From Escherichia phage chee24, in sequence record NC_047885.1: a stretch of DNA of 64,000 nt. One strand, written 5' to 3'. This document shows, one piece after another, positions 37,297-62,646 of this stretch (the stretch's first letter is position 1; each line of letters opens with the position of its first letter). The notes beneath the pieces are model-generated. The model saw only the letters and a program-made list of their open reading frames with translations, was not told where the DNA came from and ran no database searches. The translations under genes and the position numbers were made by a program.

Positions 37297-37317
37297 TTGT
37301 AACCTCTCTAATCAAGA

Positions 37318-37395: not shown

Positions 37396-37401
37396 AGAAT
37401 T

Positions 37402-37490
37402 TGGCGGAAGAAGTGGGAATCGAACCCACAAGGCTATATTTCAAACCGACAGATTAGCAATCTGCTGCAATACCGTTATGCTATTCTTCC
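37402..37490 (-). tRNA. tRNA-Ser (GCT), class II
   Basis: 89 nt; perfect acceptor GGAAGAA/TTCTTCC; anticodon arm GCAGA-TTGCTAA-TCTGT; long variable arm. Confidence 0.65.
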
Positions 37491-37511
37491 GAATTTATAA
37501 GATATATTATA

Positions 37512-38030: not shown

Positions 38031-38058
38031 ATTAGATTCCTCTCAAATTTATAAATAT

Positions 38059-38087
38059 ATTATACAGAGGATTTAGCATTCAAGCAA
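38059..38087 (-). promoter_or_regulatory. sigma70-type early promoter (-35 TTGCTT, -10 TATAAT)
   Basis: ATTATA-N17-AAGCAA; drives 37512-38030. Confidence 0.6.
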
Positions 38088-38203
38088 TTGAATTTTTTAA
38101 CTTTTTAGAGGAAAATCACAGGATGCTTACGGGTAGCAGGTAAGTGGTCAGGACCGAAATTTGTGACCCCACTAAAAATCTGGGGTCAATTTTTAAAGAC
38201 CCC

Positions 38204-38232
38204 TTGACATTTTTGCCGGGGTAGTGTAAAGT
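38204..38232 (+). promoter_or_regulatory. sigma70 promoter (-35 TTGACA, 17-nt spacer, -10 TAAAGT)
   Basis: Consensus -35; preceded by overlapping GACCCC/GGGGTC hairpins. Confidence 0.55.
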
Positions 38233-38294
38233 ATATGTTATGGATGAGTGATCAAAGAGACACACATTTTCTATATACTAGGAGGTGTCAAAAA

Positions 38295-39275
38295 ATGACA
38301 GAAGAAGTAGCTAAGAGTCCTGAAACCGTCGCTAGCGTAGCAGCAGAACTGCATCGTCACGAGGAATCAGATAAGAAAAAGTGGGAGAAAGTCAAAGCCT
38401 ACGAAGAAGAACATCGTGAACACGATGATAAAGATGAAGAAGATGACGATGATGAACATTGTCATAAATATGGAAAACATAAAATGCAAGAACCAGTAAA
38501 CGTATTTACTAATGGCTTCCCTGGCATGGGTGCATTCCCAGCTAACGCAAGTGCTTTCGGTGGAGAAGGTATGGGTCTATTCGGAGCTATCCTAATCGGT
38601 GCTCTATTAACAGGCGGATTTGGTGGTTTTGGTGGTTTTGGCCGTGGTGCTGGCGTTGCCGCTGAAGGGACTGCTGTGGACGCGATCCTTTCTAACCAAG
38701 ATACTGCAAGTATTCTAGCTGCAATCAATACTACTCGTACAGAAGCTAACCAGGGCACTGGGGCTGTTCTAAGCGCAGTAAACGGTGTGGGAGCTGCTCA
38801 AGCTGCTAGCACTCAGCAAGTTCTGACTACTATCTACGGTACAGGTGCTAATCTGTCAAACCAGATCTGTGCTGAAACTCGTAACGTTATTCAGGGTCAG
38901 TTCGATCTTTCTCGTCAGATGGATCAATCTTTCGCTGCTAACCAGATCGCACGTGCTCAAGATAAGTTTGACTCTGCTCAGATTGCTTTCCAGCAGTCTA
39001 TTCAGACCAATAACCAGTTTGCCGCTGTTCAGGCTCAGATGTGTGCTAACCAGAATGCTATAGAGCGTCAGCTTGCTGAATGTTGCTGTGAACTTCAGAC
39101 TGCGATCGCTGGTGTAACTACTGCGCGTATCCAGGACGAACTGAATGAATGCCGTCTGCGTGAAGCAATCGCTCAAGGTAGTGGTGCTAACGGTCAGGTA
39201 ATTAACCAAATCGCTGTAAGTCTTGGTGCTATCACTCAGACTCTGGCTGGTCTGCAGGCTAAACTGCCGGCTTAA
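38295..39275 (+). CDS. low-complexity protein: acidic N-terminus, Gly-rich hydrophobic segment, Gln/Ala-rich C-terminus
   Basis: 326 aa from ATG with AGGAGG RBS inside track ORF 38235-39275; consensus promoter at 38204-38232. Confidence 0.6.
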   Translation: MTEEVAKSPETVASVAAELHRHEESDKKKWEKVKAYEEEHREHDDKDEEDDDDEHCHKYGKHKMQEPVNVFTNGFPGMGAFPANASAFGGEGMGLFGAILIGALLTGGFGGFGGFGRGAGVAAEGTAVDAILSNQDTASILAAINTTRTEANQGTGAVLSAVNGVGAAQAASTQQVLTTIYGTGANLSNQICAETRNVIQGQFDLSRQMDQSFAANQIARAQDKFDSAQIAFQQSIQTNNQFAAVQAQMCANQNAIERQLAECCCELQTAIAGVTTARIQDELNECRLREAIAQGSGANGQVINQIAVSLGAITQTLAGLQAKLPA

Positions 39276-39296
39276 AATTAAGGGGAGGAGCCCATT

Positions 39297-39713
39297 ATGA
39301 GTAAATATGGTTTTGTAAACAACGGATTTAATCAACAAATGGGCTCCCAGCAGCCCGTTCCGGGTCTGGATAATCCTTACCTACAACAGTTGCAACAGCG
39401 TTTAGCAGAAGCGCAACAGATGCAGCAACAACTCCAGCAAAACCCTGGAAGTGTGAGTCCTATGCAAATGATGCAGCAAATGAGCGGGCAGTCGCAAATG
39501 CCTCAACAAATGCAGCAACAGGTGCCTCAGCAGCAAGTTCAGCAACAAACCCAACAACCGCAGGTTTCTGCGGAAGGACAGGCAGTACTAGCTCTTTTCG
39601 AAGATTTCGCAAAGACAGAGGATGGGAAACAGCTTGTATCACTTATGGGTAAGTTTAATAGCTTCTGCCAAAGCCAGGTTGCAAAAGCTCAAAATGGTGA
39701 TAATAACTCCTAA
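39297..39713 (+). CDS. glutamine-rich protein (138 aa)
   Basis: ORF with GGGGAGGAG RBS; second gene of rightward operon. Confidence 0.55.
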   Translation: MSKYGFVNNGFNQQMGSQQPVPGLDNPYLQQLQQRLAEAQQMQQQLQQNPGSVSPMQMMQQMSGQSQMPQQMQQQVPQQQVQQQTQQPQVSAEGQAVLALFEDFAKTEDGKQLVSLMGKFNSFCQSQVAKAQNGDNNS

Positions 39714-39722
39714 GGAGGAATT

Positions 39723-39917
39723 ATGTGTTGCAGAAAATCTGTTTCGTGCTGCCCAATGCCTGTAGCACGTTGTTGCTCTCCAGCAATGTTTACACAAATA
39801 CCGGCGTTCAATCCCTTTGCCTTTAAGCCTACTCTTATCCTGCCCCCTAGAGTAGATTTTCAGTCAAGATTGGCCTCCCGTATGGGTGGTTGCTGTAACA
39901 AGAGTATATGGTTCTAA
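39723..39917 (+). CDS. Cys-rich small protein (64 aa)
   Basis: ORF with AAGGAGG RBS; contains 8 Cys including CC pairs; followed by hairpin terminators. Confidence 0.5.
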   Translation: MCCRKSVSCCPMPVARCCSPAMFTQIPAFNPFAFKPTLILPPRVDFQSRLASRMGGCCNKSIWF

Positions 39918-39933
39918 AGAACCAATAATAAAA

Positions 39934-39968
39934 AGCCCCTAGTCGAAAGACTTAGGGGCTTTTCTCTT
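39934..39968 (+). terminator. rho-independent terminator (possibly bidirectional)
   Basis: Hairpin AGCCCCTAGTC..GACTTAGGGGCT flanked by AAAA upstream and TTTT downstream. Confidence 0.65.
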
Positions 39969-39984
39969 ATCTTAAATACAGAAA

Positions 39985-40016
39985 AGCCCTGCGCTCTCCA
40001 GGGAACGCAGGGCTTA
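39985..40016 (-). terminator. rho-independent terminator for leftward SPFH gene
   Basis: Hairpin AGCCCTGCG..CGCAGGGCT with T-run on minus strand. Confidence 0.6.
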
Positions 40017-40038
40017 CTTCGAATATTACGTGTGGGTA

Positions 40039-40986
40039 TTACTTGTTACGCATATCCATAATCATCTGGCCATCATAACCAGTGCCAACCACAGTCTGCG
40101 GTACACCACCTTGATACTTCTGAGCACGAATCATTTCAACTTCTAGTTGCTTCCAGCGAATCATCTCAGGAGTAATGGTACGTTGCAGAGCAGCGTTAGC
40201 TTCAGCTTCTTTCTTAGCTGCATACAGTTTAGCATCTGCATCACGTTCGTTTGCAATAGCTTGGTTGTTACGAGCTTCACGATCTGCTTCTGCTTGTTTA
40301 ACCTTCTGCTGTGCTTCTTGTTCAACGCGAGCTAATTCAGCTTTCGCAGCATTAACTTGTTCTTCGCGAACTTTGGTATTCTGTACCTGTTCCATAATTA
40401 CCGGTGGCAATGTAATATCCTGAAGGAACACTTGCTTAACTGTGTAACCATAGGGGCGTGCATACTCTTCAACTTCCTGTTGAATTGCAGTTTGCAATTG
40501 TGCTTGAATTTTAGCATCAAACAAATCTTGTGCTTTAGGTACAGACTTACCAAACTCACGAATAGTAGACAGTAATTTTTCAGTTACATACTTATCTAGA
40601 GCCTGATCTTGAGTACCCGCATTAATACGGTTGATCGGTGCCTTAGAACCATCAAACTGCAACATAACAGTCAGGTCAACAGTGGATTTAAACTTATCCT
40701 GGCTAGGAACCTGAAGTTTATCTAATTTTACAGCAATATCTTTTGTACTAAAAGTATCGAAAGATGCAAATGGGTTTACAAGATGGAAACCAGGTAATAC
40801 TGGGTTAGGATCTACTTTACCTAGAAATGTTTGGGTTTTAACCGTACCATCAGAAACAATAGTATATGAATTAAAAGCTAGGATTAAACCTGCTAAACCA
40901 ACTACAGCACCAATACTCCAACGTTTAATAGTGCGAATTACTTTTTGCTCAGAAGTCAGTTCTTTCATATTTTTAGTATTAGACAT
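40039..40986 (-). CDS. SPFH/band-7 (prohibitin/HflC-like) membrane protein
   Basis: 315 aa; N-terminal TM helix, SPFH-like core, charged coiled-coil C-terminus. Confidence 0.6.
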   Translation of the reverse strand: MSNTKNMKELTSEQKVIRTIKRWSIGAVVGLAGLILAFNSYTIVSDGTVKTQTFLGKVDPNPVLPGFHLVNPFASFDTFSTKDIAVKLDKLQVPSQDKFKSTVDLTVMLQFDGSKAPINRINAGTQDQALDKYVTEKLLSTIREFGKSVPKAQDLFDAKIQAQLQTAIQQEVEEYARPYGYTVKQVFLQDITLPPVIMEQVQNTKVREEQVNAAKAELARVEQEAQQKVKQAEADREARNNQAIANERDADAKLYAAKKEAEANAALQRTITPEMIRWKQLEVEMIRAQKYQGGVPQTVVGTGYDGQMIMDMRNK

Positions 40987-41020
40987 ATATTTCCTTTGTT
41001 TTAGTTACAGTTAATAAAAT

Positions 41021-41095
41021 TGGCCGAGGTGACAGGATTCGAACCTGCATAAAGGAATTTAGAAGACTCCTGCCTCTCCCTTAGACTACACCCCG
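41021..41095 (-). tRNA. tRNA-Arg (TCT)
   Basis: Hand-folded; anticodon arm GGAGT-CTTCTAA-ATTCC; T-arm GCAGG-TTCGAAT-CCTGT. Confidence 0.65.
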
Positions 41096-41597
41096 TTTAA
41101 GTATTTTTAAGAACTCTCGTAAAAACTCTTAAAAATACAGACGATACCGGGAGAGTCATAAGTCTCACTCATTAAGTATTTCAAGACAAAATACAGTAAC
41201 GTCTATTATTTTCCAGTTTAAGTCAAGGTGACTTAGTGGTTATGTCCTGCGGTATACTGAGGACTAGGTTAGGTTAGGGTCATGACTCCCCACCTTTTTG
41301 CTGCTACTCAACAGGAGTTATCGCGAATTACCTGTGCTATTGTGCACCATTAGTGGCATCTCTCATGCCAGCATTTCCCACTTTGTGGATAGTTTGAAAA
41401 ACTACTCCGATATGGAGAAAGAACTTCACTATCCTAGAATACCTTCTAAAGTTCTTCTTTAGCCTGGACATAGTTAAATCGTAATAAAACTATTCAGCAG
41501 ACTGGTTGGTTAGTCTGGAACCAACTACCGCGTGGTTTAGGCAGTGCGCAACTAACCTCGGAAGCTTTTACATTAAAAGCACCAGTTATCCAGTTCT

Positions 41598-41670
41598 TAC
41601 CGACCGTAGGATTCGAACCTACATCTTCCACCAGTTACGGCTTGATAATACCGTTTTATACTAGATCGGC
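41598..41670 (-). other. tRNA-like element (acceptor and perfect T-arm; anticodon arm unresolved)
   Basis: T-arm GTAGG-TTCGAAT-CCTAC and acceptor GCCGATC/GGTCGGT; CCA not encoded. Confidence 0.35.
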
Positions 41671-41893
41671 AGTGTTACTACATAAGTGATTTCCACACCC
41701 CACTATCAGTAAATTAGAGAAGAGTTTAGGGGAGAGGTTTCAGACGCCCCATTTTACACGTTCTAGCCACTAACCGGGATTGCCGCCCCCTGTGTACTAG
41801 TTTTCCAACTAACCCACCGACTCTATTCAATGCGCTCCGGTTGGGATTCTGCACTCAGCGTAATCGGCTCGCTGTTCTCTAATTTATGAATAT

Positions 41894-42612: not shown

Positions 42613-43080
42613 TTAAGTTTTAGTGACAACAGGCTTATAAAATGTATGTCCCTTAATCTTAGTTGTTTTCTTAAACTTCTTTGTCCAGTATGGTTTATCT
42701 TTACCACTATGGAAGTATAAAGCTCCATGTGTAGGATCTTGTGGTAAATCAACGTAGTATATCACTCTAGCTAAATTCTTGGCGGTTTGCCAAGCCTCAT
42801 CAGTTTTATCAACTTTTGGTCTCTTAGATACCCAAGAGAACTGGTTAGACTGATATACTACTTTACAGTAGGAATCTGGGAATTTACCGGAGTTTACACG
42901 GTTTTTAGTAACATGTGCAATCGCCGTCATTCCCTTTATGCCCTCACCACGACTTTCGAAATAGATATTTTTAGCAATGCAATCTATTTCTTTTGCATCG
43001 TGCGATGCCTGACTACTAAAGCTGAAGGTAAGGGCAGCTACTAAAAGCAAAGCTGCCTTCATTCTTTTTACTCCTGCCAA
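42613..43080 (-). CDS. secreted cell-wall hydrolase (SleB-like)
   Basis: 155 aa; signal peptide; SleB-like hydrolase signature. Confidence 0.6.
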   Translation of the reverse strand: MAGVKRMKAALLLVAALTFSFSSQASHDAKEIDCIAKNIYFESRGEGIKGMTAIAHVTKNRVNSGKFPDSYCKVVYQSNQFSWVSKRPKVDKTDEAWQTAKNLARVIYYVDLPQDPTHGALYFHSGKDKPYWTKKFKKTTKIKGHTFYKPVVTKT

Positions 43081-43385
43081 TCATATTCAACACGATTGGG
43101 ATTTTCTTTATACCCTAAGTCAAGCAAATCATTACGCATAGTTTGCTTAGCTACGGGATTCGAGGTTACTAGTACCACTTTCTTTGGTCTCTGCCCAAAT
43201 TCTAAGAGTAAACGAAGAATTTGATAACCTTCCATACCATCTACAGCCAAGTCATTATCCATATAAACAAAGTGGCCTGTGGTATCAGTTTTATTCAGAA
43301 ACTCGACAGCGGCTTCTGGGGTTCGAATGATAATGTCCATTCCATGAAGATTACGCACATCATCAATCAAAATATGAAAAGTCAT
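43068..43385 (-). CDS. receiver-like domain protein (105 aa)
   Basis: ORF; ILIDDV ... DGMEGYQIL resembles CheY-like receiver fold. Confidence 0.45.
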   Translation of the reverse strand: MTFHILIDDVRNLHGMDIIIRTPEAAVEFLNKTDTTGHFVYMDNDLAVDGMEGYQILRLLLEFGQRPKKVVLVTSNPVAKQTMRNDLLDLGYKENPNRVEYDWQE

Positions 43386-44772: not shown

Positions 44773-45474
44773 TCAAATTTTCATTTTTTCGATCATAGCT
44801 GCAACACAATAGCTTTCAACTAAGGCATCAAATGCAGGATCATGCTTAACCGGATATATCCCATAACGAATGGTGTCCATCTTCTCCATTTTAGCTATTG
44901 CCCAGCTAACACCTTCGGTCTCTAGAGCCTTATAACTGTATCCAGCTTGCATCCAGAGATTACGAAGAGATCGAACATTACCCAAATTCCAGAATTTCCA
45001 CGGAACTACCTCTTCATTGGTTCCAGCATGGAACGTGTTTGCAGAGTAGATAGTCATATCAAACTCTGGGCCATTGCCATAATACAAAGCATTTTCGCCT
45101 AGAGCCAACTCCATAATATTTTGGGCCATAGAGAAGGCAGCATAGTTTGAGCCTAATTTATTAGTGCAATGATGTTTACCATTTTGGAAGGCAATCAGTT
45201 TTGGATTACGTTCCTTCATAGCTTCCATAATATGTAGAGCTGATGGGCTATTCTTAGCTTGATCCATCCAGAATGCTAGAGTAGATGCCGTAACTTTAGC
45301 TCCAGAATTAAGCTGATCCTGCACATCCAAAGTAACAAATACTAAGTCAGGGTCTTTATCAATCCCATGCATAGCCACAAAAGCGAAAGAAGGCATTGCG
45401 ATATGAGTAGTACCACAATCTCCTGGAGTTCCTAGAGATTCAATATCTAGCATACCAAATGGTTTTACTTTCAT
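44773..45474 (-). CDS. DEDD-type 3'-5' exonuclease-like protein
   Basis: 233 aa; N-terminal MLDIESLG resembles DnaQ-like Exo I motif. Confidence 0.5.
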   Translation of the reverse strand: MKVKPFGMLDIESLGTPGDCGTTHIAMPSFAFVAMHGIDKDPDLVFVTLDVQDQLNSGAKVTASTLAFWMDQAKNSPSALHIMEAMKERNPKLIAFQNGKHHCTNKLGSNYAAFSMAQNIMELALGENALYYGNGPEFDMTIYSANTFHAGTNEEVVPWKFWNLGNVRSLRNLWMQAGYSYKALETEGVSWAIAKMEKMDTIRYGIYPVKHDPAFDALVESYCVAAMIEKMKI

Positions 45475-54284: not shown

Positions 54285-56159
54285 ATGAATCGTAATGAAG
54301 AACTAAAGTATAAAGAAATGCAGGCGTTAATTAGAAACTGCAAAGAGATTATCGAAGGATCAGCAGATGAAGAGCTGCTGTTTAATAATGCCAATAAACC
54401 CTCAGAACGTTTCCCTACACAAAGGGATATGCTTGCAGGTGAATTGAGTAAGTATCTGATTCTAGAAGAAATGCCAATTCAGATTCGAAATGCTCATATG
54501 ATTGGGGATATTCATTTCCATGATGCTGATTATGCCGCGTTAGGCATGACTAACTGTTGTCTGGTAGCTCTGGAAGATATGTTGAAGAATGGTATGAAGG
54601 TTGGTAATGCTGAAATTAGCACTCCAAACTCTATCACTACTGCTGCTGCTATTACAGCTCAGATTATCACACAGGTTAGCTCCCATCAGTATGGTGGTAC
54701 TTCTGTAGACCGATTAGATGAAGTATTAGCCCCTTATGTTCGTAAGTCCTATGATAAAAATCATGCGTTTGCAAAACGTTGGACTAAGGATGAAGCCAAA
54801 GCATCCGTAATGGCTACGGAGATGACTGAAAAAGAAGTCTATGACGCTTGTCAGGGTTTAGAATATGAAATCAATACCATGTTCAACTCTAATGGTCAGA
54901 GTCCATTTATTACCTTTGGTTTTGGTCTAGGAACTTCTTGGGAAGCACGTCTAGTACAGAGGGCAATACTGAAAGTACGCATGGATGGTTTAGGTATCAA
55001 TAAACGTACAGCTATCTTTCCTAAACTGGTATTTGTACTTCGTGATGGCGTAAATATGAAACCAGGAGATGTTAATTATGACATCAAGAAGTTAGCTATG
55101 AAATGTACTGCTGAACGTATGTATCCAGATTATATCAGCTATGACAAAGTTGTAGAAGTTACTGGAGACTACAAAGTTTCTATGGGCTGCCGTTCATTCC
55201 TAGCTGCTGCAGAAGATGGTGAAACTGCTGGCCGTAATAACTTAGGTGTTGTTTCTGTAAACTTGCCTAGAATTGCTATCGAAGCTGAAGGAAATATTGA
55301 TCTATTCTTTGATTTGCTTGAGCTACGTGTGGATACAGCGTTAAAAGCATTGGAGTGGAGAGTTGATCGCTTAAAATACATCCAAGCTAAAGCTGCACCC
55401 ATCCTCTATATGTCAGGAGCCTTTGGGTTACGCTTGGAGCCTGATGAATATGTATTTGATCATTTTTATAACCGTGCTTCTGTATCTCTGGGGTATATTG
55501 GTTGCCATGAAATGCTACAGTTCATGTTTGGCAAAGATGTAGACACAATGTCCGAGACCTGCATCAAGTTTGTTCAGCGTGTATTGCAGTACATGCGGGA
55601 TAGAGTCGATCAGAAGAAGGAAGAAACTAAGTTAGGTTATAGCCTGTATGCTACACCATCAGAATCCCTATGTGACCGTTTTTGTCGTCTAGACCGTGAA
55701 TATTTCCCGGAGCATGAAGATATTCTGTCCAAAGGATACTACACTAACTCTCACCACCTTGATGTGGAACGTAAAGTTGCTCCTAACGTGAAATTTGATT
55801 ATGAATCTAATTTTACTCCAATTGCATCTGGTGGGTGTATTTCCTACGTGGAATTACCAGACATGAAACGATTCCCGGATGCACTGGAATGGGTTATTAA
55901 CTATGCTGCTAGTAAGGTTCATTACTTTGGTATTAATACTCCAGTGGATTCTTGTGGTAAATGTGGATTCTTGGGTGAGACAGTAGCATCCGAAGATGGA
56001 TTTAAGTGCCCTATCTGTGGTAATCATGACCCTGAAACTCTTGAAGTAACTCGTCGAGTTTGTGGGTATCTTGGAAATCCAGGCGCTCGTCCGTTTAACC
56101 CAGGCAAACAACATGAGGTTATGGGCAGGGTGAAACATCAGGATATTCGAGCTAAATAA
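54285..56159 (+). CDS. nrdD: anaerobic ribonucleoside-triphosphate reductase (class III)
   Basis: 624 aa; C-terminal Cys cluster and glycyl-radical motif RRVCGY; consensus promoter and RBS upstream. Confidence 0.85.
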   Translation: MNRNEELKYKEMQALIRNCKEIIEGSADEELLFNNANKPSERFPTQRDMLAGELSKYLILEEMPIQIRNAHMIGDIHFHDADYAALGMTNCCLVALEDMLKNGMKVGNAEISTPNSITTAAAITAQIITQVSSHQYGGTSVDRLDEVLAPYVRKSYDKNHAFAKRWTKDEAKASVMATEMTEKEVYDACQGLEYEINTMFNSNGQSPFITFGFGLGTSWEARLVQRAILKVRMDGLGINKRTAIFPKLVFVLRDGVNMKPGDVNYDIKKLAMKCTAERMYPDYISYDKVVEVTGDYKVSMGCRSFLAAAEDGETAGRNNLGVVSVNLPRIAIEAEGNIDLFFDLLELRVDTALKALEWRVDRLKYIQAKAAPILYMSGAFGLRLEPDEYVFDHFYNRASVSLGYIGCHEMLQFMFGKDVDTMSETCIKFVQRVLQYMRDRVDQKKEETKLGYSLYATPSESLCDRFCRLDREYFPEHEDILSKGYYTNSHHLDVERKVAPNVKFDYESNFTPIASGGCISYVELPDMKRFPDALEWVINYAASKVHYFGINTPVDSCGKCGFLGETVASEDGFKCPICGNHDPETLEVTRRVCGYLGNPGARPFNPGKQHEVMGRVKHQDIRAK

Positions 56160-56166
56160 GCTAATC

Positions 56167-56200
56167 AGCCGGGTTGCTAGTCGACCTGGCTTTTATTTTA
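56167..56200 (+). terminator. rho-independent terminator after nrdD
   Basis: Hairpin AGCCGGG..CCTGGCT followed by TTTTATTTTA. Confidence 0.55.
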
Positions 56201-56201
56201 T

Positions 56202-56230
56202 TTGCTTTCAGCTAAAAATATATGTATAAT
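56202..56230 (+). promoter_or_regulatory. sigma70 promoter (TTGCTT-N17-TATAAT)
   Basis: Upstream of 56258 ORF; preceded by A/T tract. Confidence 0.6.
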
Positions 56231-56257
56231 AGATTTATAAATTTGAGAGGAGGGTAT

Positions 56258-56617
56258 ATGGAACTAAAACCATTTATTGTTGTATCTAAGTTAGGACATT
56301 ATCACTTAGGAGTAGATACTATTCAGGAAGCTATTTTTGCTGCTACAGGTGATTACTCATTACTAGAAGGTATTGGATATCCTACATTACTAGGTGACTT
56401 TGTAGAGCAAGAATTAGATATTACTGTCTATAATCCTATATATGAAGAACCTGAAGACTTAAAAGAGACTCTAGAATTTGTATATTGGAACCACTTACAA
56501 GTATTTAATGTTACCACCAATGGCACAGAGGATTTCTCTTCTGCTATTAAATATCATATTAAGCAAGTTTACTACGATTACTTCTATGAGGATATTGGAG
56601 CGGAGCTAAAAGTATGA
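56258..56617 (+). CDS. hypothetical acidic protein (119 aa)
   Basis: ATG (MELKPF) with GAGAGGAGGG RBS inside track ORF 56222-56617; promoter at 56202-56230. Confidence 0.55.
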   Translation: MELKPFIVVSKLGHYHLGVDTIQEAIFAATGDYSLLEGIGYPTLLGDFVEQELDITVYNPIYEEPEDLKETLEFVYWNHLQVFNVTTNGTEDFSSAIKYHIKQVYYDYFYEDIGAELKV

Positions 56618-56844
56618 AAAACGTAAAACATCTTAAATATCGCTTAATCTATAACGGACGTATGGAAACTGAAGAGCTAGCTCAATTAGCTATTAACTCT
56701 AATGAGGTTATGGTGCGTGCGCTGGCAATTGAAAAGTTGCGGGCTTCTTATGAAAGCCGTATTATGCGGCTGGAGGAAACCCTTTATGGACTTCTTGAAT
56801 CAGAAGCTAAAAGCAACCCAGAGGACAGGCCTACTAAGCAATAG
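56614..56844 (+). CDS. hypothetical protein (76 aa)
   Basis: ORF overlapping upstream stop by 4 nt. Confidence 0.45.
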   Translation: MKNVKHLKYRLIYNGRMETEELAQLAINSNEVMVRALAIEKLRASYESRIMRLEETLYGLLESEAKSNPEDRPTKQ

Positions 56845-56898
56845 AAGGTATGCATATAGGGAATAATTTTACTCCCAAAACATTATCGAAGGATTTAA

Positions 56899-57738
56899 GT
56901 GAGGAATTGTACAGTGCGTAGATTAATTATTATCAGTGGTGCAGGTTTGAGTGTTGAAAGTGGTGTACGAGCCTTCCGTACTGATACTGCTAGTGGTAAA
57001 GCATTGTGGGATGATTATGACTTAGAAGAGGTATGTAATATTCATGCCTTTCGTGGTAACTTTTATCATAAAACCCATATGTTTTACAACAAGCGACGTG
57101 AAGAGCTAGAAACTGTTGAACCTAACCTTGCGCATCTTCGTATTGGTGAGTGGTATAAGAAATATCCGGGTCAAGTAGTAAATTTGACTACTAACGTTGA
57201 TGACCTTATTGAGCGTGCTGGTGTTCCCCATAATGATATTCTCCACATTCATGGATACTTAAAGGAGGTTGTTGTAGCTGATAGCTATAATAGTAGCAAT
57301 AAACGAGTTATTGATGTTGGGTATAGCTCTATTGACCCAGATGATTATAAATGGGTTAAACCTAATGTAATCTTCTTTGGTGAGCATGCTCCAGCGTACG
57401 CAGAAATGTACAATATTTTTGATGGTATTACTAGTCAAGATATGATCGTTGTAGTTGGTTGCTCTAACCAAGTAATTAATTTCTACTGGGAATTATTTCC
57501 TATTCTTAACCGTACTGCTGCGAAACTTATGGTGGTTAACTACTACGATAGTGCCCTAGCGGCAGAACCAGGCTATCAAGGTATGACTCGTAGTGATATG
57601 TACCAGTTGGAAGATCGTGGTATTCCTTACTGGAGTAAAGGTGCGGTAGATGCTTTCAGTGATCCTGGTTTTATTGCTCGTGTAGAAGCTCATCTAGAGG
57701 GTAGACCTTATATGCCGGGAAAACAAATATGTCCATAG
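56899..57738 (+). CDS. Sir2-family NAD-dependent deacetylase/ADP-ribosyltransferase-like protein
   Basis: 279 aa; N-terminal Rossmann motif GAGLSVESGVRAFR matches sirtuin GAGIS.ESG..FR; true start may be GTG at 56914 (RBS GAGGAA). Confidence 0.7.
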   Translation: MRNCTVRRLIIISGAGLSVESGVRAFRTDTASGKALWDDYDLEEVCNIHAFRGNFYHKTHMFYNKRREELETVEPNLAHLRIGEWYKKYPGQVVNLTTNVDDLIERAGVPHNDILHIHGYLKEVVVADSYNSSNKRVIDVGYSSIDPDDYKWVKPNVIFFGEHAPAYAEMYNIFDGITSQDMIVVVGCSNQVINFYWELFPILNRTAAKLMVVNYYDSALAAEPGYQGMTRSDMYQLEDRGIPYWSKGAVDAFSDPGFIARVEAHLEGRPYMPGKQICP

Positions 57739-57897
57739 TTAAATCTGTATATACACATCCCGATGATATATTTGTATGGGCGGATGGTAGTTGGTGCTAT
57801 CGATGTGAGCTATGGGAAATGGACTATAAATCCGATGACTATGGTGTCATATATGTTGATACGGTTGAGTATGATACGTTCTTAGAAAGGGACAAAA

Positions 57898-58404
57898 ATG
57901 GAAATAAGTAATACTCCAATTATTTTTCTAGATATTGATGGGGTGCTCAACTCTAGCATCTCCCATCACCATGCACCTGATGATGAGAAGATTTTCTTCG
58001 GAAGTGACTGGGTTTTTAAGCCGCTTCTCAAGGCTTTTCAGGACTTTATTCGTCCTTCTCCAATAATGATTGTTGGGGTATCTTCATGGTTCTCTGTCAG
58101 GAATGAGATGGAGAACGTTCAGATTATGACCGGATTAGATCTTATCGATCGTTTTCTTGGTACAACGGATTTTACTGGTGGTGGGCTATCTAGGGGTAAT
58201 TCTGTTCTTCGCTTCGTTGAAAAGCATAAGCTCAAACATTGGTGTGTGCTGGATGACGCTGGTGCTATGATGTATCAGTATCCAACGGTTATAGTCAACG
58301 GTAGAACTGGAATAAATCTTCAAGATTTAAGAGCTGTTAGCTATATGTTAGAATTTAGTCCAGATCTTGAAATGTGTAAAGCCCTACAACAATTTAAGGT
58401 GTAA
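57898..58404 (+). CDS. HAD-superfamily phosphatase-like protein
   Basis: 168 aa; N-terminal motif IIFLDIDGVLN (DxDG) and C-terminal WCVLDD. Confidence 0.6.
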   Translation: MEISNTPIIFLDIDGVLNSSISHHHAPDDEKIFFGSDWVFKPLLKAFQDFIRPSPIMIVGVSSWFSVRNEMENVQIMTGLDLIDRFLGTTDFTGGGLSRGNSVLRFVEKHKLKHWCVLDDAGAMMYQYPTVIVNGRTGINLQDLRAVSYMLEFSPDLEMCKALQQFKV

Positions 58405-58406
58405 AT

Positions 58407-58835
58407 ATGTTCAATAATGTATTTTCTAAAGAAGCTAACCCAATATTGGTTAATTTTTGGCGTACTCTTCCAGCCAATCTGTACAATGAGGCTATTAACT
58501 CCTTGAAAATATGGTGTGAGAATAACGAAATCTCCTTTGCTTTTAAAGATGATATTGATGAGGCTCCCTGTATTGGTTTAATTGTTCAGGTAGAGGAGGG
58601 TCTTGAAGAAATTGTCGGTTGGAAAGAGTTAGATGAAATGGGCTTAGTTTTTGCGTTAAACTATAAGCTGTTTATGCCTGCTAAGCATCGCCTCGTTGTT
58701 AACTATAAAACTAGTGAATCTCCTGGTTTTCAGGTTAATGAACGTTATGGTTGGTCTTACTCACCGGAAGAAGTAAATGAGGGGATTCAGAAACTTCGAC
58801 ATTTCGGGTATATGATCCCAGGTTTAACTGCTTAA
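58407..58835 (+). CDS. hypothetical protein, paralog A (142 aa)
   Basis: ORF; shares DDxPCIG, ELxxMGLxxALN, YxPGL motifs with the next ORF. Confidence 0.55.
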   Translation: MFNNVFSKEANPILVNFWRTLPANLYNEAINSLKIWCENNEISFAFKDDIDEAPCIGLIVQVEEGLEEIVGWKELDEMGLVFALNYKLFMPAKHRLVVNYKTSESPGFQVNERYGWSYSPEEVNEGIQKLRHFGYMIPGLTA

Positions 58836-58844
58836 GGAGGCAGA

Positions 58845-59237
58845 ATGGAACAAGTATATTGGCGTCAGATTGACCCTAGTTTGGTGAAACGTGCGGAGAA
58901 GCTGCTACAACGTTGGTTGGGGGTAAGACAAGTCTCCTTCACTTTTCCGGAGCAGCAAACGGATGATCCATGCATTGGCGTTTTCCTGTCTGGATATGCC
59001 GGGGAATGGGAATTGGATTGGAATGAATTGTCTGCTATGGGCTTGATTGTTGCCCTAAACTTCTCTTTGTTCCATCCACGTGGTTTGGCCATATGTCGTG
59101 TGCCTGATGATGGTTGTTCGCCCCATCTTTTACAGGTGGAAGATGATATTTGGGAGTACACTCCAGATATTCTCACAGAAGCTAAAGAACAATTAAATCG
59201 TGTTGGGATTTATGTTCCGGGCTTAAATGATGAATGA
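58845..59237 (+). CDS. hypothetical protein, paralog B (130 aa)
   Basis: ORF with AAGGAGG RBS; paralog of 58407-58835. Confidence 0.55.
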   Translation: MEQVYWRQIDPSLVKRAEKLLQRWLGVRQVSFTFPEQQTDDPCIGVFLSGYAGEWELDWNELSAMGLIVALNFSLFHPRGLAICRVPDDGCSPHLLQVEDDIWEYTPDILTEAKEQLNRVGIYVPGLNDE

Positions 59238-59328
59238 TTTTTATTAGCTGAACTCTGATTACCGAGTCATTTTGGCTCGGTTTTATCCGTACTCAAGACC
59301 AATGATAGCACCATCCGGAAAATTTTAC

Positions 59329-59357
59329 TTGCATGATGCCCAAAATCTTGATATAAT
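59329..59357 (+). promoter_or_regulatory. sigma70 promoter (TTGCAT-N17-TATAAT)
   Basis: Starts a 500-nt ORF-poor leader upstream of the helicase-like gene. Confidence 0.55.
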
Positions 59358-59856
59358 ATTTATATTGAATTGAGAGACATTAGTAAAAATTGATTTTGCT
59401 AATTTTTCTTGTTTACAATCCGCGATACGGAACAGTTAGGCTGCCCCATTAAGGGTTGTTTTAACTGTTACGTGTTAGTTTTTAAACAAATAGTTAATAG
59501 AATACTTAGCGATCTGCGTCCCGTAGGAACCCTGGTAAGGCCTCGAAGCAACCTAGATAGAGGTGGTTGTGAAGTGAGACGGGAGGAGTGAAAAACTCCG
59601 AGACGTGATTCTGTAAGTTATATTGCATCTAGTATGAGCTAGTATATGAAGCATTAGGTGAGCAAATCTGGCTTAGCGGCCATCCTCAAGGATTTGTGCG
59701 GTATAGCAAAGCAGCAGCGCAGCGTGAAAGTGGAAGTTGCCACCCCACTTCAGTATTTGCGATTAATTTGTTGAGAAATTGACAGTAACAGTTGTTCTAT
59801 TCTTTCTGAATAGTCCTAAAGAAAACTTATTTCATTTCCAACACAGGAGTATTGTT

Positions 59857-62646
59857 GTGTTTTCAATCCTACAAGGTCATGCAGGATTTCATCGCGATTT
59901 AGCCACAGGCAATTGGCGAGAAGTTAAAGCAGAAGATTATCTTTTTGCTAAAAGATTTTCCTCAAAGCATCCTGAAGGTAAACCAGCTTCAATGCCCTTC
60001 AAGTTTGATGTAATTGACGAAGTTGATCCTCAAACCCTAGTAGAAATGCTTCCTCTTATGAGACGTTTAACGTCTGACCCTCATATCGTTGCGGTACGAG
60101 GTCGATGTCTTGCACCTAAAAATAATGTGCGACGTAAGAAGGGCAACTTTAATGTATCTAATCCAAGTCATATAATCGCAATGGATGTGGATGGTATTGT
60201 AGATACAGGAGGTTGTAACAAGTTTGATCTTGTTGGCATGGCGCGTCATATTATTAGGATGTTGAATAGTATTAGTGAGGATATGTTTCCTCTTGATGCA
60301 GGGTTTATTGCTCATGCATCATCTTCGGCTGGACTAAAACCAGGTATCCGAATGCACTTAATACTAGAATCTAATGTTAAAGTTACACAGGGCCAGATCA
60401 AGTTCTTATTTACATCTATCAACGAAAGTAGTAGACAAAAGTATGGTTTTGATATTGCCGACTTAGCTTATTACTCTTCCGTACAGCTCCACTATTTTGC
60501 AGATCCTTTATTTACTGATGGTATAGTTGATCCGTTTAAAGCGGAGAGTGCTTCACGTCTGGTATTTGTTAAAGGCTCAAAAGTAAATTTACCTAATAAT
60601 CTAGTTGACTATGAAACAACTAGAGGAGAGTTTAAAGAGGAATTCTACTCTTTACTCGATCAAATTAAAGGTAAAAAAGCTGCCTCTGATAAAGTAGAGG
60701 AAACTATCAGTGAGCTAGAAGAGGCTGATGATGGGGTATACTTACGTATTATTCCAAAGCTATATCACCGAGCGTTAGAGGATGGGGTAGATTTTGGTTG
60801 GCTAGAGAAAGAAATCCGCCCAGCTTTATCAGAATATATTGCAACTAAAGATAATAGCCGTAATATTCAGGATTATTTCAATAACGGACGGAAGCAGGCA
60901 TTAAAAGCCTTTGTGAATAACTCTAAGCGTGAGATCCCTGAAGTATTAAAAGGTATCCCCCTTAAAAAGCTAGAAACTAACTCACTAGAGACCGACAACT
61001 TCTTGAAATTAAATACTGTACCACCAGAAGGCTATATGACTTTTGTAAAAGCAAGTCTAGGTACAGGTAAAACCACGGCTGTTGTTCGTTGGCTGGATTC
61101 AGGGGTTATTAAAGGTAATTTCTTAGCAATTACCAATACTAGGGCACTAGTGTCTTCAAATGCTAAGAAATTTAGCGCAGGTCAATATGATAAATCTGTA
61201 GATATGCTCAACTTTAAACGTGGGGCTATTGATCGTATGTCCACAACCATTCACTCTTTGCATAAGTTTAAGAGTTTTATTGGTCAAATTGATGCAATCT
61301 TTATAGATGAATGTGATGCAGTAATGAATGACCTATTATTCGCCCCGGTTGTTAAGCAACGTCGCGAGTGTATTCAGGTTCTTCGAGATATTCTTGCAAC
61401 TGCAAAAATAATTATATTATCTGATGGAGATATTAGTGCAGAAACAATTGAAGCATATGGTTCTTTGATTGAGTTTGATAAACCAGTTGCATTTTACAAT
61501 CACCACCGTAAAATGTTATCAAAGGCTCATGCTTATGAGTTTCCTGATGAATCCAGTATTTGGGTTGCACTTCAAACATCACTAGAGATGGGTGAGAAAT
61601 CTATTCTAGTATCTGATTGTGGCCCTGATGAGCTGAATGAGAAGGGTATGGCACTACGTCGTAATACTGGTGCGTTAGTTAAGGAAATCCATTCAAACTC
61701 TACCTCAGATGTGGATATTCGACGTATTCTGGATTATACAACTAATGAGCTAATTGATCAACAAATTGATTGCTTATTATGTAGTCCATCCGTAACGAGT
61801 GGTGTTGACTTCAACTATTTTGATAACGTATTCGTTATTACTAGAACCAGTAATCAAGCGCCAAACATGCGTTTTCAAGCAATCAGGCGCGACCGTGGTG
61901 CTCAGAACATCTATTATTTTATTGATAAATCCACTAGTGGATTCTCCGCAGGTTCTGAACAATATAATATTGATGAAGGTTGGCTGGAGTTAGCACAGCA
62001 ATTATACGCACGTCGCAGGGAGCTGGAATCTAGAAACTATACTAGTACCTTACGTTATTACTTGCTTGATCAGGGTGCAACTATTGATATTTTCAGCGAA
62101 AGCTGGGGAACTATTGAAGGTGCTGGTAAAGAGTACACAGAAGAGCGAATCAAAGCTATTCTACATTCAACCCCGGATTATTGTGCTCCACGTCATGCGG
62201 ATGCGTATGAAGCTAAACTACTTCTTGTTCGCTATTATCATCTTGAGTCTATTAAAGATGTAACAGTTGAGCATGTTGAACAATATATCAAAGATAAACC
62301 GAATGATCGAGCTGCATTCTTCCATAAGATGCACGAGATGTTCTGGGAAGATATTAAGAAGTGTTCAAATATAACCATTAAACCATTCATAGAAGCTCTA
62401 AAAGGTAAGAAAAAGGACTTCTTCCTTAAAACAGGTCAGAGTGCTAACCCAAAATATGCTAGAATGTATCTTGGTATGATGGGTATCGGTAAGGATATGA
62501 ACACTGAAAATATCGTAGACTGGTATAGAACCTACTGCAAAATCGAGTGTATGCCAATTCCTTATAAGTTCATGACTGATGAGGAAAAACATATGCACGA
62601 TGAAGCAATGTCAGAACTAGGTGCTAGAAATGACAGTGAAGAATAA
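59857..62646 (+). CDS. P-loop NTPase/helicase-like protein (candidate replication origin-binding helicase)
   Basis: GTG start with AGGAG RBS inside track ORF 59779-62646; Walker A GTGKTT and Walker B FIDECD in central region. Confidence 0.65.
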   Translation: MFSILQGHAGFHRDLATGNWREVKAEDYLFAKRFSSKHPEGKPASMPFKFDVIDEVDPQTLVEMLPLMRRLTSDPHIVAVRGRCLAPKNNVRRKKGNFNVSNPSHIIAMDVDGIVDTGGCNKFDLVGMARHIIRMLNSISEDMFPLDAGFIAHASSSAGLKPGIRMHLILESNVKVTQGQIKFLFTSINESSRQKYGFDIADLAYYSSVQLHYFADPLFTDGIVDPFKAESASRLVFVKGSKVNLPNNLVDYETTRGEFKEEFYSLLDQIKGKKAASDKVEETISELEEADDGVYLRIIPKLYHRALEDGVDFGWLEKEIRPALSEYIATKDNSRNIQDYFNNGRKQALKAFVNNSKREIPEVLKGIPLKKLETNSLETDNFLKLNTVPPEGYMTFVKASLGTGKTTAVVRWLDSGVIKGNFLAITNTRALVSSNAKKFSAGQYDKSVDMLNFKRGAIDRMSTTIHSLHKFKSFIGQIDAIFIDECDAVMNDLLFAPVVKQRRECIQVLRDILATAKIIILSDGDISAETIEAYGSLIEFDKPVAFYNHHRKMLSKAHAYEFPDESSIWVALQTSLEMGEKSILVSDCGPDELNEKGMALRRNTGALVKEIHSNSTSDVDIRRILDYTTNELIDQQIDCLLCSPSVTSGVDFNYFDNVFVITRTSNQAPNMRFQAIRRDRGAQNIYYFIDKSTSGFSAGSEQYNIDEGWLELAQQLYARRRELESRNYTSTLRYYLLDQGATIDIFSESWGTIEGAGKEYTEERIKAILHSTPDYCAPRHADAYEAKLLLVRYYHLESIKDVTVEHVEQYIKDKPNDRAAFFHKMHEMFWEDIKKCSNITIKPFIEALKGKKKDFFLKTGQSANPKYARMYLGMMGIGKDMNTENIVDWYRTYCKIECMPIPYKFMTDEEKHMHDEAMSELGARNDSEE

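What the first reader, a model, noticed from the sequence alone, without database searches (positions are those of the whole stretch)
56899..59237. Sir2-like protein, HAD phosphatase and a tandem paralog pair downstream of nrdD
A Sir2-family Rossmann protein (GAGLSVESGV) is followed by a HAD phosphatase (IIFLDIDGVLN) and two paralogous 130-140-aa proteins sharing DDxPCIG and YxPGL motifs. Sir2 domains occur both in bacterial NAD-depleting defence systems and in phage counter-defence or NAD-salvage functions. This cluster could be an NAD/ADP-ribose metabolism or anti-defence module.
Basis: partly seen in the sequence, partly recalled or inferred. Interest (0 to 1): 0.6.

Follow-up and report, generated by a model that had tools for sequence, protein, structure and literature searches.

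The report
T5 phage sirtuin–phosphatase early operon
This is the already-annotated early-gene cluster of T5-like phages, encoding a zinc-less sirtuin, a small HAD phosphatase and two duplicated proteins of unknown function. The domain calls are right, but the sirtuin–phosphatase pairing has been published with an untested prediction of NAD-dependent RNA-end repair, so it is not a new system.

Summary
The window is 100% identical to T5-like phage pork27, and the region is the T5.102–T5.107 part of an early operon downstream of nrdD. The four proteins are:
- a true sirtuin (Pfam SIR2, E 2e-24), with the NAD-binding motif, Asn99/Asp101, catalytic His118 and the class-III YxxR motif intact, but no zinc-binding cysteines;
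- a HAD_SAK_2 phosphatase (E 2e-20) with all four HAD motifs and a confident model whose best structural match is MDP-1;
- two paralogs (31% identical), each holding two DUF7415 domains, with a confident model and no solved structural relative.

No anti-phage defence model matches any of them. The sirtuin–HAD neighbourhood in T5-like phages was described by Iyer, Burroughs and Aravind (2022), who predicted NAD-dependent RNA repair with the sirtuin as a Tpt1/KptA analogue. I verified the supporting contexts in rV5, Mydo and CBB. I also found a cREC gene elsewhere in this window.

This genome has no RNA ligase, polynucleotide kinase or NARP1 genes, and I found no experiments on these genes. DUF7415 is fused elsewhere to nucleotide-metabolism enzymes and is probably an accessory module.

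Verdict: already known genes, function still only predicted, moderate-to-low interest.

The parts
56167..56191 (+). Intrinsic terminator after nrdD, marking the upstream boundary of the operon
   Evidence: Terminator scan found a 10-bp stem followed by a T-run. T5 annotates a terminator and then a promoter at the homologous place.
56222..56617 (+). T5.100-like ORF of unknown function. The likely start is the ATG at 56258, which has GAGGAGG upstream.
   Evidence: ORF list; phrog_11748, E 1e-64; no Pfam hit; ribosome-binding-site check.
56614..56844 (+). T5.101-like 76-aa ORF of unknown function, conserved upstream of the sirtuin in T5, Sealy and My1
   Evidence: phrog_5236; alignment A4; local hmmsearch.
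56899..57738 (+). Sirtuin (T5.102 orthologue). It is derived from class III and has no zinc site. The likely start is 56914.
   Evidence: Pfam SIR2, E 2e-24. Best solved relative is E. coli CobB 1s5p, E 1.7e-17. GAGLS14, Y63/R66, N99, D101, H118 and FGE160 are present, and the only cysteines are C4, C46, C188 and C278. These residues are invariant across the phage clade.
57729..57911 (+). T5.104-like 60-aa ORF (motif HPDDIFxWxDGSWCYR), overlapping the Sir2 stop by 10 nt and the HAD start by 14 nt
   Evidence: ORF list; phrog_5116; 40% identical to the Klebsiella phage Sealy counterpart and paralogous to T5.103.
57898..58404 (+). HAD_SAK_2 phosphatase (T5.105 orthologue)
58407..58835 (+). DUF7415 paralog A (T5.106 orthologue), with two DUF7415 domains
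58845..59237 (+). DUF7415 paralog B (T5.107 orthologue), with two DUF7415 domains
   Evidence: Pfam, E 2.7e-32, two stretches. 31% identical to paralog A.
59261..59286 (+). Hairpin (ACCGAG...CTCGGT) followed by a T-run; the likely operon terminator
   Evidence: Read from the sequence. T5 annotates a terminator 25 nt after T5.107 at the homologous place. The consensus scan did not flag it.
43068..43385 (-). cREC protein (T5.084 orthologue), 13.5 kb away. It is a possible third component, because the same family sits beside the orthologous sirtuin in rV5, Mydo and CBB.
   Evidence: Pfam cREC_REC, E 1.4e-14; rV5 and Mydo cREC; CBB Nudix-cREC fusion.

Best explanation
This is an early-expressed operon of a T5-like phage. 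Its two enzymes most likely form an NAD-dependent pathway that removes phosphates from damaged RNA ends and cleans up the resulting ADP-ribose phosphates.

Proposed steps (all inferred):
1. Host metal-independent RNases cut tRNA or mRNA and leave 2',3'-cyclic phosphate ends.
2. A cyclic-phosphate opener, either the phage cREC protein or a host enzyme, produces 2'- or 3'-phosphates.
3. The sirtuin uses NAD+ to take off a 2'-phosphate, in the way Tpt1/KptA does. The phosphate oxygen attacks C1'' of NAD+ and releases nicotinamide. His118 then activates the ribose 2''-OH to release ADP-ribose 1'',2''-cyclic phosphate.
4. The capless HAD phosphatase removes 3'-phosphates, or the phosphate of ADP-ribose-1''-P.

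The class-III YxxR pocket, which normally holds the carboxylate of succinyl-lysine, would hold the phosphate.

The two DUF7415 proteins are non-catalytic pseudo-dimeric accessory or adaptor proteins and are not core parts of the pathway.

Shown here: domain identities, intact catalytic residues, loss of the zinc site, operon structure and conserved neighbourhoods. Inferred: the substrates and every reaction step.
For: - The sirtuin is catalytically intact: GAGxS, N99, D101, H118 and FGE align with CobB and are invariant in eight phage orthologues. Y63-x-x-R66 is kept.
- The same sirtuin clade, 38-64% identical in alignment A5, lies beside RNA-end enzymes in three other lineages:
  - rV5: RnlA, cREC, Sir2, MazG.
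  - Mydo: RnlA, cREC, AAA_33 kinase, Sir2.
  - CBB: 2H phosphoesterase, Sir2, Nudix-cREC fusion, PIN-PhoH.
- Sir2 and HAD_SAK_2 stay adjacent in T5-like phages, My1 and Pantoea phage AAS21, even though their order is inverted in AAS21.
- The genome also encodes cREC.
- The HAD is minimal (168 aa). Its best structural match is MDP-1, and the capless protein phosphatases Scp1, UBLCP1 and Fcp1 are among its stronger matches. All its motifs are intact.
- The HAD homologue in Aeromonas phage Ah1 lies within 2 kb of rnlA, with cca about 4 kb away.
- The phage carries 26 tRNA genes.
- The model matches the published prediction for T5-like phage SP15. SP15 carries near-identical genes.
Against: - I found no experiment on any of these genes.
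- This genome has no RnlA-type RNA ligase, polynucleotide kinase, MazG, 2H or Nudix homologue by tblastn, so a full heal-and-seal route is missing.
- Klebsiella T5-like phages keep Sir2 and DUF7415 but lack the HAD.
- All the T5-like cases share one syntenic slot, so the Sir2-HAD adjacency may be partly inherited rather than selected.
- The retained FGE loop, His and YxxR fit an ordinary lysine deacylase equally well.
- HAD_SAK_2 homologues also sit beside td, frd and nrdA.1, and beside Prs-like/NAMPT-like (NARP1-type) genes. Small-molecule substrates are therefore possible.
Confidence: 0.4

Rival explanations
1. The sirtuin is an ordinary NAD-dependent protein lysine deacylase, of the desuccinylase/demalonylase type like CobB and SIRT5. 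It resets acylation of host or phage proteins early in infection. The HAD, the small ORFs and the DUF7415 proteins are unrelated neighbours in a crowded early operon.
For: The closest relatives by sequence are CobB, Sir2Af and SIRT5. The catalytic His, the FGE substrate loop and the class-III YxxR motif are all kept. In Vibrio phage K566 the orthologue has no RNA-repair neighbours. This is the standing database annotation.
Against: The zinc-binding Cys4 module of the substrate-binding small domain is lost in the whole phage clade. Scores fall far below every CobB equivalog cutoff, for example 91.7 against 320 bits. Repeated adjacency to RnlA, cREC, 2H, Nudix and HAD genes in four lineages would go unexplained.
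Confidence: 0.25
2. This is a counter-defence or NAD-metabolite module. The sirtuin, HAD and cREC would degrade or recycle NAD-derived molecules made by host immunity, such as cyclic ADP-ribose signals, ADP-ribose-1''-phosphate from RES-type NAD+ phosphorylases, or ADP-ribose cyclic phosphate.
For: In ChuuTotoro-, ABPH49- and L019-type phages, HAD_SAK_2 sits directly upstream of a Prs-like/NAMPT-like pair. That pair is of the type shown to be the NARP1 NAD+ rebuilding pathway in Felixounavirus. NARP1 operons are known to recruit an ADPR-1''-P phosphatase, although that one is a Macro-domain protein. The 2H enzyme next to the CBB sirtuin matches the anti-CBASS Acb1 family (58 bits against a cutoff of 27). 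cREC was proposed to open cyclic ADP-ribose or cyclic phosphates.
Against: This genome has no Adps/Namat homologue to feed. No known sirtuin hydrolyses such signals. No PADLOC match exists (anti-defence libraries were not available). A sirtuin consumes NAD+, which works against NAD+ conservation when the phage ligase needs NAD+.
Confidence: 0.2
3. The cluster supports the deoxynucleotide supply. The HAD would be a nucleotide phosphatase, and the DUF7415 proteins would be adaptors or regulators of ribonucleotide reduction and dNTP enzymes. Under this reading, the sirtuin regulates those enzymes.
For: The operon sits between the thy-frd-nrdB-nrdA-phoH-nrdD block and the replication genes. A single-domain DUF7415 gene overlaps both nrdD and nrdG in Klebsiella T4-like phages. 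DUF7415 is fused to dATP/dGTP pyrophosphohydrolase (3 cases) and thymidylate kinase (1 case). HAD_SAK_2 lies next to td/nrdA.1 or near DHFR in other phages. AAS21 lacks both nrdD and DUF7415.
Against: DUF7415 also occurs in P2-like prophages that have no nrd genes and in arrays of anonymous early genes. Fifteen of the 20 long DUF7415 proteins tested show no second domain. The adjacency could simply reflect T4-like and T5-like early-region packing.
Confidence: 0.1
4. The sirtuin is a bulk NADase, like the defence Sir2 effectors, used for host shut-off or superinfection exclusion.
For: The sirtuin fold and NAD+ binding site are intact.
Against: No PADLOC defence Sir2 model matches. The protein groups with deacylase-type sirtuins. 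The phage's own DNA ligase is NAD-dependent, so depleting NAD+ early would harm replication.
Confidence: 0.03

Closest known systems
Phage sirtuin-centred predicted RNA-repair neighbourhoods (Iyer, Burroughs & Aravind 2022, Viruses 14:1977, section 3.7.3; type 3, 'Escherichia phage SP15')
   Same: The same genes. SP15 is a T5-like phage whose DUF7415 protein is 92% identical to ours. The sirtuin is joined by a 'Swiss-army-knife' HAD phosphatase.
   Different: That paper does not discuss the DUF7415 pair, the T5.104-like ORF, or the unlinked cREC gene found here. The prediction has not been tested. This genome lacks the ligase and kinase seen in the type 1 and type 2 neighbourhoods.
E. coli CobB / human SIRT5 (class III sirtuin deacylases)
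   Same: Best sequence matches (E 1.7e-17 to 1s5p). Shared GAGxS, xNxD, HG, FGE and YxxR motifs.
   Different: No Zn(Cys)4 module. Gln is replaced by Thr in the TQNxD motif. There is a clade-specific EVCNI motif and a GY...KP segment. Scores are well below the CobB equivalog cutoffs.
Tpt1/KptA RNA 2'-phosphotransferase, with Cpd1 and Poa1 (yeast tRNA-splicing clean-up)
   Same: A proposed functional analogue. The chemistry would be NAD+-dependent removal of a 2'-phosphate via an ADP-ribosyl intermediate, then opening and removal of the phosphate on ADP-ribose. The phage counterparts would be Sir2, then cREC, then HAD (chemistry from established knowledge).
   Different: Unrelated folds: Tpt1 has an ART fold, Cpd1 a 2H fold and Poa1 a Macro fold. 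No activity data exist for the phage proteins.
T4 polynucleotide kinase-phosphatase (HAD-type 3'-phosphatase domain) and MDP-1 / Scp1-type capless HAD phosphatases
Defence-type Sir2 NADases (ThsA, DSR1/2, SIR2-HerA)
   Same: Sir2 superfamily fold and use of NAD+.
   Different: No PADLOC hit. The protein is small, stands alone without a sensor domain, is phage-encoded and is of the deacylase type.

Membership tests
Sirtuin (Sir2 family, PF02146) | Profile match above the curated threshold | tested here: met
   86.9 bits against a cutoff of 24, covering profile positions 1-178 of 180.
Sirtuin (Sir2 family, PF02146) | NAD-binding GAGxS motif, catalytic Asn/Asp (xNxD) and catalytic His (HG) | tested here: met
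   GAGLS14-18, N99, D101 and H118 align with CobB. They are invariant in the phage clade.
Sirtuin (Sir2 family, PF02146) | Zn(Cys)4 module in the small domain | tested here: not met
   There is no Cys between HG (119) and FGE (160). The only cysteines are C4, C46, C188 and C278. The same holds in all eight phage orthologues.
Sirtuin (Sir2 family, PF02146) | NAD-dependent deacylase or ADP-ribosyltransferase activity | not testable with these tools
   Needs enzyme assays.
Class III sirtuin / CobB equivalog | YxxR acyl-carboxylate motif, and the NCBIfam CobB model cutoffs | tested here: inconclusive
   Y63 and R66 are present. The best NCBIfam scores are 102 against 243 bits and 91.7 against 320 bits, below the cutoffs.
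Defence-type Sir2 NADase (Thoeris ThsA, DSR, SIR2-HerA) | Match to a defence-system Sir2 model, with a fused or adjacent sensor | tested here: not met
   No PADLOC hit at E <= 0.1 other than noise. No sensor domain or partner gene.
HAD superfamily phosphatase, HAD_SAK_2 (PF18143) | Profile match above threshold, plus motifs I (DxD), II (S/T), III (K/R) and IV (DD) | tested here: met
   74.2 bits against 27.5. D12, D14, S62, R99 and D119 are invariant in 43 sequences; D120 is nearly invariant.
HAD superfamily phosphatase, HAD_SAK_2 (PF18143) | Rossmannoid HAD fold | tested here: met
DUF7415 (PF24187) | Profile match above threshold | tested here: met
   121.5 and 111.2 bits against 27, with two stretches in each protein.
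Sirtuin-centred phage RNA-repair system (Iyer et al. 2022) | Sirtuin of the phage clade adjacent to an RNA-end-processing enzyme (2H, cREC, HAD, Nudix or kinase) | tested here: met
   Sir2 and HAD_SAK_2 are separated by one 60-aa ORF. The sirtuin is 58-64% identical to the rV5 and Mydo sirtuins in alignment A5.
Sirtuin-centred phage RNA-repair system (Iyer et al. 2022) | An RNA ligase to seal healed ends | tested here: not met
   tblastn with the rV5, Mydo, Ah1 and L019 RnlA proteins finds nothing at E < 1 in the window or in pork27 63000-112000. No ligase other than the NAD-dependent DNA ligase is annotated.
Sirtuin-centred phage RNA-repair system (Iyer et al. 2022) | RNA 2'-phosphate removal by the sirtuin | not testable with these tools
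   A prediction only. No experimental paper was found.
NARP1 NAD+ reconstitution pathway (Adps + Namat) | Prs-like Adps and NAMPT-like Namat genes | tested here: not met
   tblastn with the ChuuTotoro Prs-like and NAMPT-like proteins gives no hit at E <= 0.1.

The most novel reading that the evidence does not exclude
The zinc-less phage sirtuin clade is not a protein deacylase. It carries out Tpt1-like chemistry on phosphorylated ribose, removing 2'-phosphates from RNA ends or acting on ADP-ribose phosphates. cREC and the HAD would finish the pathway. The new-fold DUF7415 proteins would act as adaptors that tie this chemistry to the phage's ribonucleotide and dNTP machinery. That would be a new catalytic activity for the sirtuin fold and a new type of phage RNA-damage or NAD-metabolite counter-measure. 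The sirtuin part of the idea was already published as a prediction in 2022. The DUF7415 link is my own inference.
Probability: 0.3. Interest if true: 0.7.

Novelty: already known. Interest (0 to 1): 0.33.

Why it matters
T5-like phages are model and therapeutic phages. This sirtuin is present in about a thousand sequenced phage genomes, yet nobody has shown what it does.

If it proves to be a nucleic-acid or ADP-ribose phosphotransferase, that would extend sirtuin chemistry beyond lysine deacylation. It would also add a layer to how phages cope with host RNases and NAD-centred immunity.

If it is an ordinary deacylase, the cluster is routine host-takeover metabolism.

As a scan finding it adds little. 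The genes, the domains and the neighbourhood are already in public annotation and in the literature.

Tried and rejected
- **Defence models.** PADLOC found nothing for any of the seven operon proteins.
- **RNA families.** Rfam at E <= 1 over 55900-60300 found nothing.
- **Internal repeat in DUF7415.** Shuffled Smith-Waterman between the N and C halves was not significant (z < 1). Only the Pfam profile detects the second copy.
- **HAD against PDB sequences.** No hit even at E <= 10.
- **DUF7415 context.** One metagenomic single-domain DUF7415 sat among anonymous small early genes, which was uninformative.
- **Missing partners in this genome.** tblastn for RnlA, NrdG, MazG, the rV5 phosphoesterase and ATPase, Adps, Namat, 2H, Nudix and AAA_33 kinase was all negative. 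The one exception was a weak P-loop match inside the ORF that Pfam identifies as the dNMP kinase.
- **Linking DUF7415 to the rV5 neighbourhood.** The rV5 MazG showed no similarity to the PF04447-DUF7415 fusion proteins.
- **A T4 homologue of DUF7415.** None was found that would give a studied gene name.
- **Literature.** Searches for DUF7415, T5.102-T5.107, Tequintavirus + Sir2 and sirtuin + Tpt1 + bacteriophage found no experimental work.
- **NARP3 (NadR + PnuC).** Reported in T5-like phage Bas30. The ORFs I scanned and the T5 annotation show no such genes, but I did not test this with query sequences.
Full report
**Identity of the window**

The 3.2-kb stretch around the finding is 100% identical to T5-like phages pork27, pork29, saus111K and poul124, and about 92% identical to phage T5. 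It matches 526 phage records in all. Window coordinates equal pork27 coordinates plus 1.

In T5 the genes are T5.100 to T5.107. They are preceded by the nrdD terminator and a promoter, and followed by a terminator. The same signals are visible here: a terminator at 56167-56191 and a hairpin with a T-run at about 59261-59286.

The genes are tightly packed. The 60-aa ORF at 57729-57911 overlaps the sirtuin stop and the HAD start. The HAD and paralog A are 2 nt apart, and A and B are 9 nt apart. The finding is therefore the distal two-thirds of one early transcription unit. That unit lies between the nucleotide-metabolism block (thy, frd, nrdB, nrdA, phoH, nrdD) and the replication genes.

**Check of the observation**

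All four ORFs and the quoted motifs are present.
- Pfam gives SIR2 (E 2e-24), HAD_SAK_2 (E 1.8e-20) and DUF7415 for both paralogs (E 1.6e-35 and 2.7e-32). All are above the curated cutoffs.
- The paralogs are 31% identical, E 8e-21.
- The annotated start of the sirtuin, the GTG at 56914 with GAGGAA upstream, is likelier than the GTG at 56899.

**The sirtuin**

Its best solved relatives are E. coli CobB (1s5p, E 1.7e-17), archaeal Sir2Af and human SIRT5. NCBIfam places it nearest the CobB-type deacylase models, but far below their cutoffs.

In 279-aa numbering it keeps the following:
- GAGLS14-18 and F25-R26;
- Y63 and R66, the class-III YxxR motif;
- T98-N99-V100-D101;
- H118-G119;
- F160-G161-E162 (the FGE loop).

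What is missing is the Zn(Cys)4 module. The protein has only C4, C46, C188 and C278, and none lies between HG and FGE. An alignment with T5, Klebsiella phage Sealy, Pectobacterium phage My1, rV5, Mydo, CBB and Vibrio phage K566 shows the same loss throughout. It also shows clade-specific invariant motifs, namely EVCNI, GY and KP. No PADLOC defence model matches.

The protein is a true sirtuin of a distinct phage clade derived from class III. It is not a defence-type NADase.

**The HAD**

Motif I (D12-x-D14-G-V-L-N), motif II (S62/S63), a basic residue (R99) and motif IV (D119/D120) are invariant or nearly so in 43 diverse homologues. The profile search found 1070 related proteins, mostly stand-alone phage proteins of 150-180 aa. 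UniRef names the T5-like ones 'RNA repair protein'.

Two public annotations are wrong. pork27 truncates the gene to its last 98 codons, which removes the catalytic DxD. RefSeq T5 calls T5.105 'Sir2', evidently through phrog_18062, which is a 92-aa family labelled Sir2 that matches residues 77-168 of the HAD.

**The paralog pair**

Most family members are single-domain proteins of 60-80 aa in phages and P2-like prophages. An exhaustive profile search found 299 cluster representatives. I scanned the 20 longest, with these results:
- three are fused behind a dATP/dGTP pyrophosphohydrolase domain;
- one is fused in front of a thymidylate kinase domain;
- one is fused behind an Rv2179c-like 3'-5' exoribonuclease domain;
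- fifteen show no second domain.

Other contexts:
- In Yersinia phage L-413C the DUF7415 match lies in the C-terminal part of orf91, which RefSeq annotates as a DUF3850-domain protein similar to phage P2 orf91.
- In Klebsiella T4-like phages a 77-aa DUF7415 gene overlaps the end of nrdD and the start of nrdG.
- In Aeromonas phage Ah1 it abuts rnlA.

DUF7415 therefore looks like a mobile, probably non-catalytic accessory module that travels with nucleotide and nucleic-acid enzymes. Nothing links it specifically to NAD.

**Conservation of the cluster**

| Phage | Arrangement |
|---|---|
| My1 (another Demerecviridae subfamily) | nrdD, two small ORFs, Sir2, 62-aa ORF, HAD, 90-aa ORF, one DUF7415 protein |
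| Klebsiella T5-like phages (Sealy) | nrdD, small ORF, Sir2, T5.104-like ORF, two DUF7415 proteins, no HAD |
| Pantoea phage AAS21 | phoH, HAD, 118-aa ORF, Sir2; no nrdD and no DUF7415 |

Sir2 and the HAD stay together even when their order is inverted, while DUF7415 and the HAD are each dispensable. All these phages share one syntenic slot, however, so this is weak evidence of functional coupling.

**Independent contexts of the sirtuin clade**

- In rV5 the orthologue lies in the run RnlA, cREC, Sir2, MazG.
- In Mydo the run is RnlA, cREC, AAA_33 kinase, a small ORF, Sir2, with Prs-like and NAMPT-like genes 5 kb away.
- In the jumbo phage CBB the run is NAMPT, then a 2H phosphoesterase, a zinc-binding ORF, Sir2, a Nudix-cREC fusion, then PIN-PhoH.

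These are the neighbourhoods described by Iyer, Burroughs and Aravind (2022). They list the T5-like phage SP15 as a third type, in which the sirtuin is joined by a 'Swiss-army-knife' HAD. They predict that these sirtuins remove RNA 2'-phosphates in the manner of KptA/Tpt1 (background).

I add one point. This genome also encodes a cREC protein at 43068-43385 on the minus strand (E 1.4e-14). It is the orthologue of T5.084, which RefSeq leaves as hypothetical.

**Mechanism**

The chemistry is plausible by analogy (inference). Both sirtuins and Tpt1 start with a substrate oxygen attacking C1'' of NAD+ and expelling nicotinamide. Both then use the ribose 2''-OH to resolve the adduct. In sirtuins that 2''-OH is activated by the conserved His. 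The class-III YxxR pocket binds an anionic group.

The trio Sir2, cREC and HAD would parallel yeast Tpt1, Cpd1 and Poa1. In yeast, that set of enzymes turns the 2'-phosphate into ADP-ribose 1'',2''-cyclic phosphate, then ADPR-1''-P, then ADP-ribose (for Poa1; the rest is established knowledge).

**Evidence against the main model**

- The genome has no RNA ligase, polynucleotide kinase, MazG, 2H or Nudix homologue. T5-like phages could heal RNA ends but not seal them.
- HAD_SAK_2 also lies directly upstream of a Prs-like/NAMPT-like pair in ChuuTotoro-type phages. That pair is 39-43% identical to the Felixounavirus proteins shown to be the NARP1 NAD+ rebuilding pathway. NARP1 operons are known to recruit an ADPR-1''-P phosphatase, although of the Macro type.
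- The CBB 2H enzyme matches the anti-CBASS Acb1 family.
- The intact FGE loop, His and YxxR fit a plain deacylase equally well.
- The phage's DNA ligase is NAD-dependent, which argues against a bulk NADase.

I therefore put the RNA-end and ADP-ribose-phosphate processing model at about 0.4. The other readings are a plain deacylase at 0.25, an NAD-metabolite counter-defence role at 0.2, support of dNTP supply at 0.1 and a NADase at 0.03.

**Novelty and verdict**

The Sir2-like gene is annotated in the public T5 and pork27 records. DUF7415 and HAD_SAK_2 are Pfam families. The sirtuin-HAD neighbourhood and its predicted role were published in 2022. I found no experimental study of any of these genes.

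The finding is real, correctly described at the domain level and already known. Its function is still open but directly testable.
- the clade-wide loss of the zinc site alongside a retained YxxR motif;
- the unlinked cREC gene;
- the DUF7415 fusions and the nrdD-nrdG context;
- the HAD_SAK_2 link to NARP1-type operons;
- two annotation errors.

Noticed in passing
window 43068-43385 (-): A 105-aa ORF is a cREC (cyclic-phosphate processing receiver) protein, Pfam E 1.4e-14. Its T5 orthologue T5.084 is annotated only as hypothetical. The same family sits beside the orthologous sirtuin in rV5, Mydo and CBB.
   Followed up: partly
window 57898-58404 (+); L002:5909-6205; L001:5863-6369: The HAD gene is mis-annotated in public records. 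pork27 truncates it to the last 98 codons, which removes the catalytic DxD. RefSeq T5 names T5.105 'Sir2 (NAD-dependent deacetylase)', apparently through phrog_18062.
   Followed up: yes
window 54285-56159 (+) and the whole pork27 genome: The phage has an intact NrdD with a glycine-radical domain, but no NrdG activase homologue by tblastn with a phage NrdG. It presumably relies on the host activase.
   Followed up: partly
L004:3980-4213 (Klebsiella T4-like phage): A 77-aa single-domain DUF7415 gene overlaps the end of nrdD and the start of nrdG. The same arrangement is seen in many related Klebsiella phages.
   Followed up: partly
proteins P0334, P0337, P0386, P0329, P0387; L025:2240-2692: DUF7415 is fused to dATP/dGTP pyrophosphohydrolase (3 cases), thymidylate kinase (1) and an Rv2179c-like exoribonuclease (1). 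In Yersinia phage L-413C the DUF7415 match lies in the C-terminal part of orf91, annotated as a DUF3850-domain protein similar to P2 orf91. This hints at a role as an accessory module of nucleotide enzymes.
   Followed up: partly
L021:6001-9217, L022:6001-9222, L019:6001-9489: In roughly 141-150-kb phages (Serratia ChuuTotoro, ABPH49 and a metagenomic contig), HAD_SAK_2 lies directly upstream of a Prs-like/NAMPT-like pair of the NARP1 type. This suggests a possible ADP-ribose-phosphate phosphatase role for this HAD family.
   Followed up: partly
L018:3270-3716 (phage CBB): The '2H/RNA ligase' gene two genes upstream of the CBB sirtuin scores above threshold for the anti-CBASS Acb1 family (58 bits against a cutoff of 27).
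   Followed up: no
window 44773-45474 (-): An Rv2179c-like 3'-5' exoribonuclease (E 3e-8; the T5.087 'exonuclease'). The same family is fused to DUF7415 in a metagenomic protein.
   Followed up: no
window 59290-60180 (+): A long stretch lies after a good sigma-70-like promoter (TTGCAT...TATAAT at about 59330-59357) and before the annotated start of the origin-binding/primase gene. It is non-coding in the pork27 annotation, though an in-frame TTG at 59779 would extend that gene, and T5 annotates a longer 929-aa gene. No Rfam match.
   Followed up: partly
window 57729-57911 (+); L001:5518-5703 and 5694-5876: T5 carries two small tandem paralogs, T5.103 and T5.104 (motif WxDGxWCYR), between Sir2 and the HAD. 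This window has only one. A homologue follows Sir2 in Klebsiella phage Sealy.
   Followed up: partly
window 28038-41671 (-): ARAGORN tRNA genes, including an odd tRNA-Ser with anticodon ACT at 41597-41671. In T5 this region also holds several stable RNAs of unknown function.
   Followed up: no
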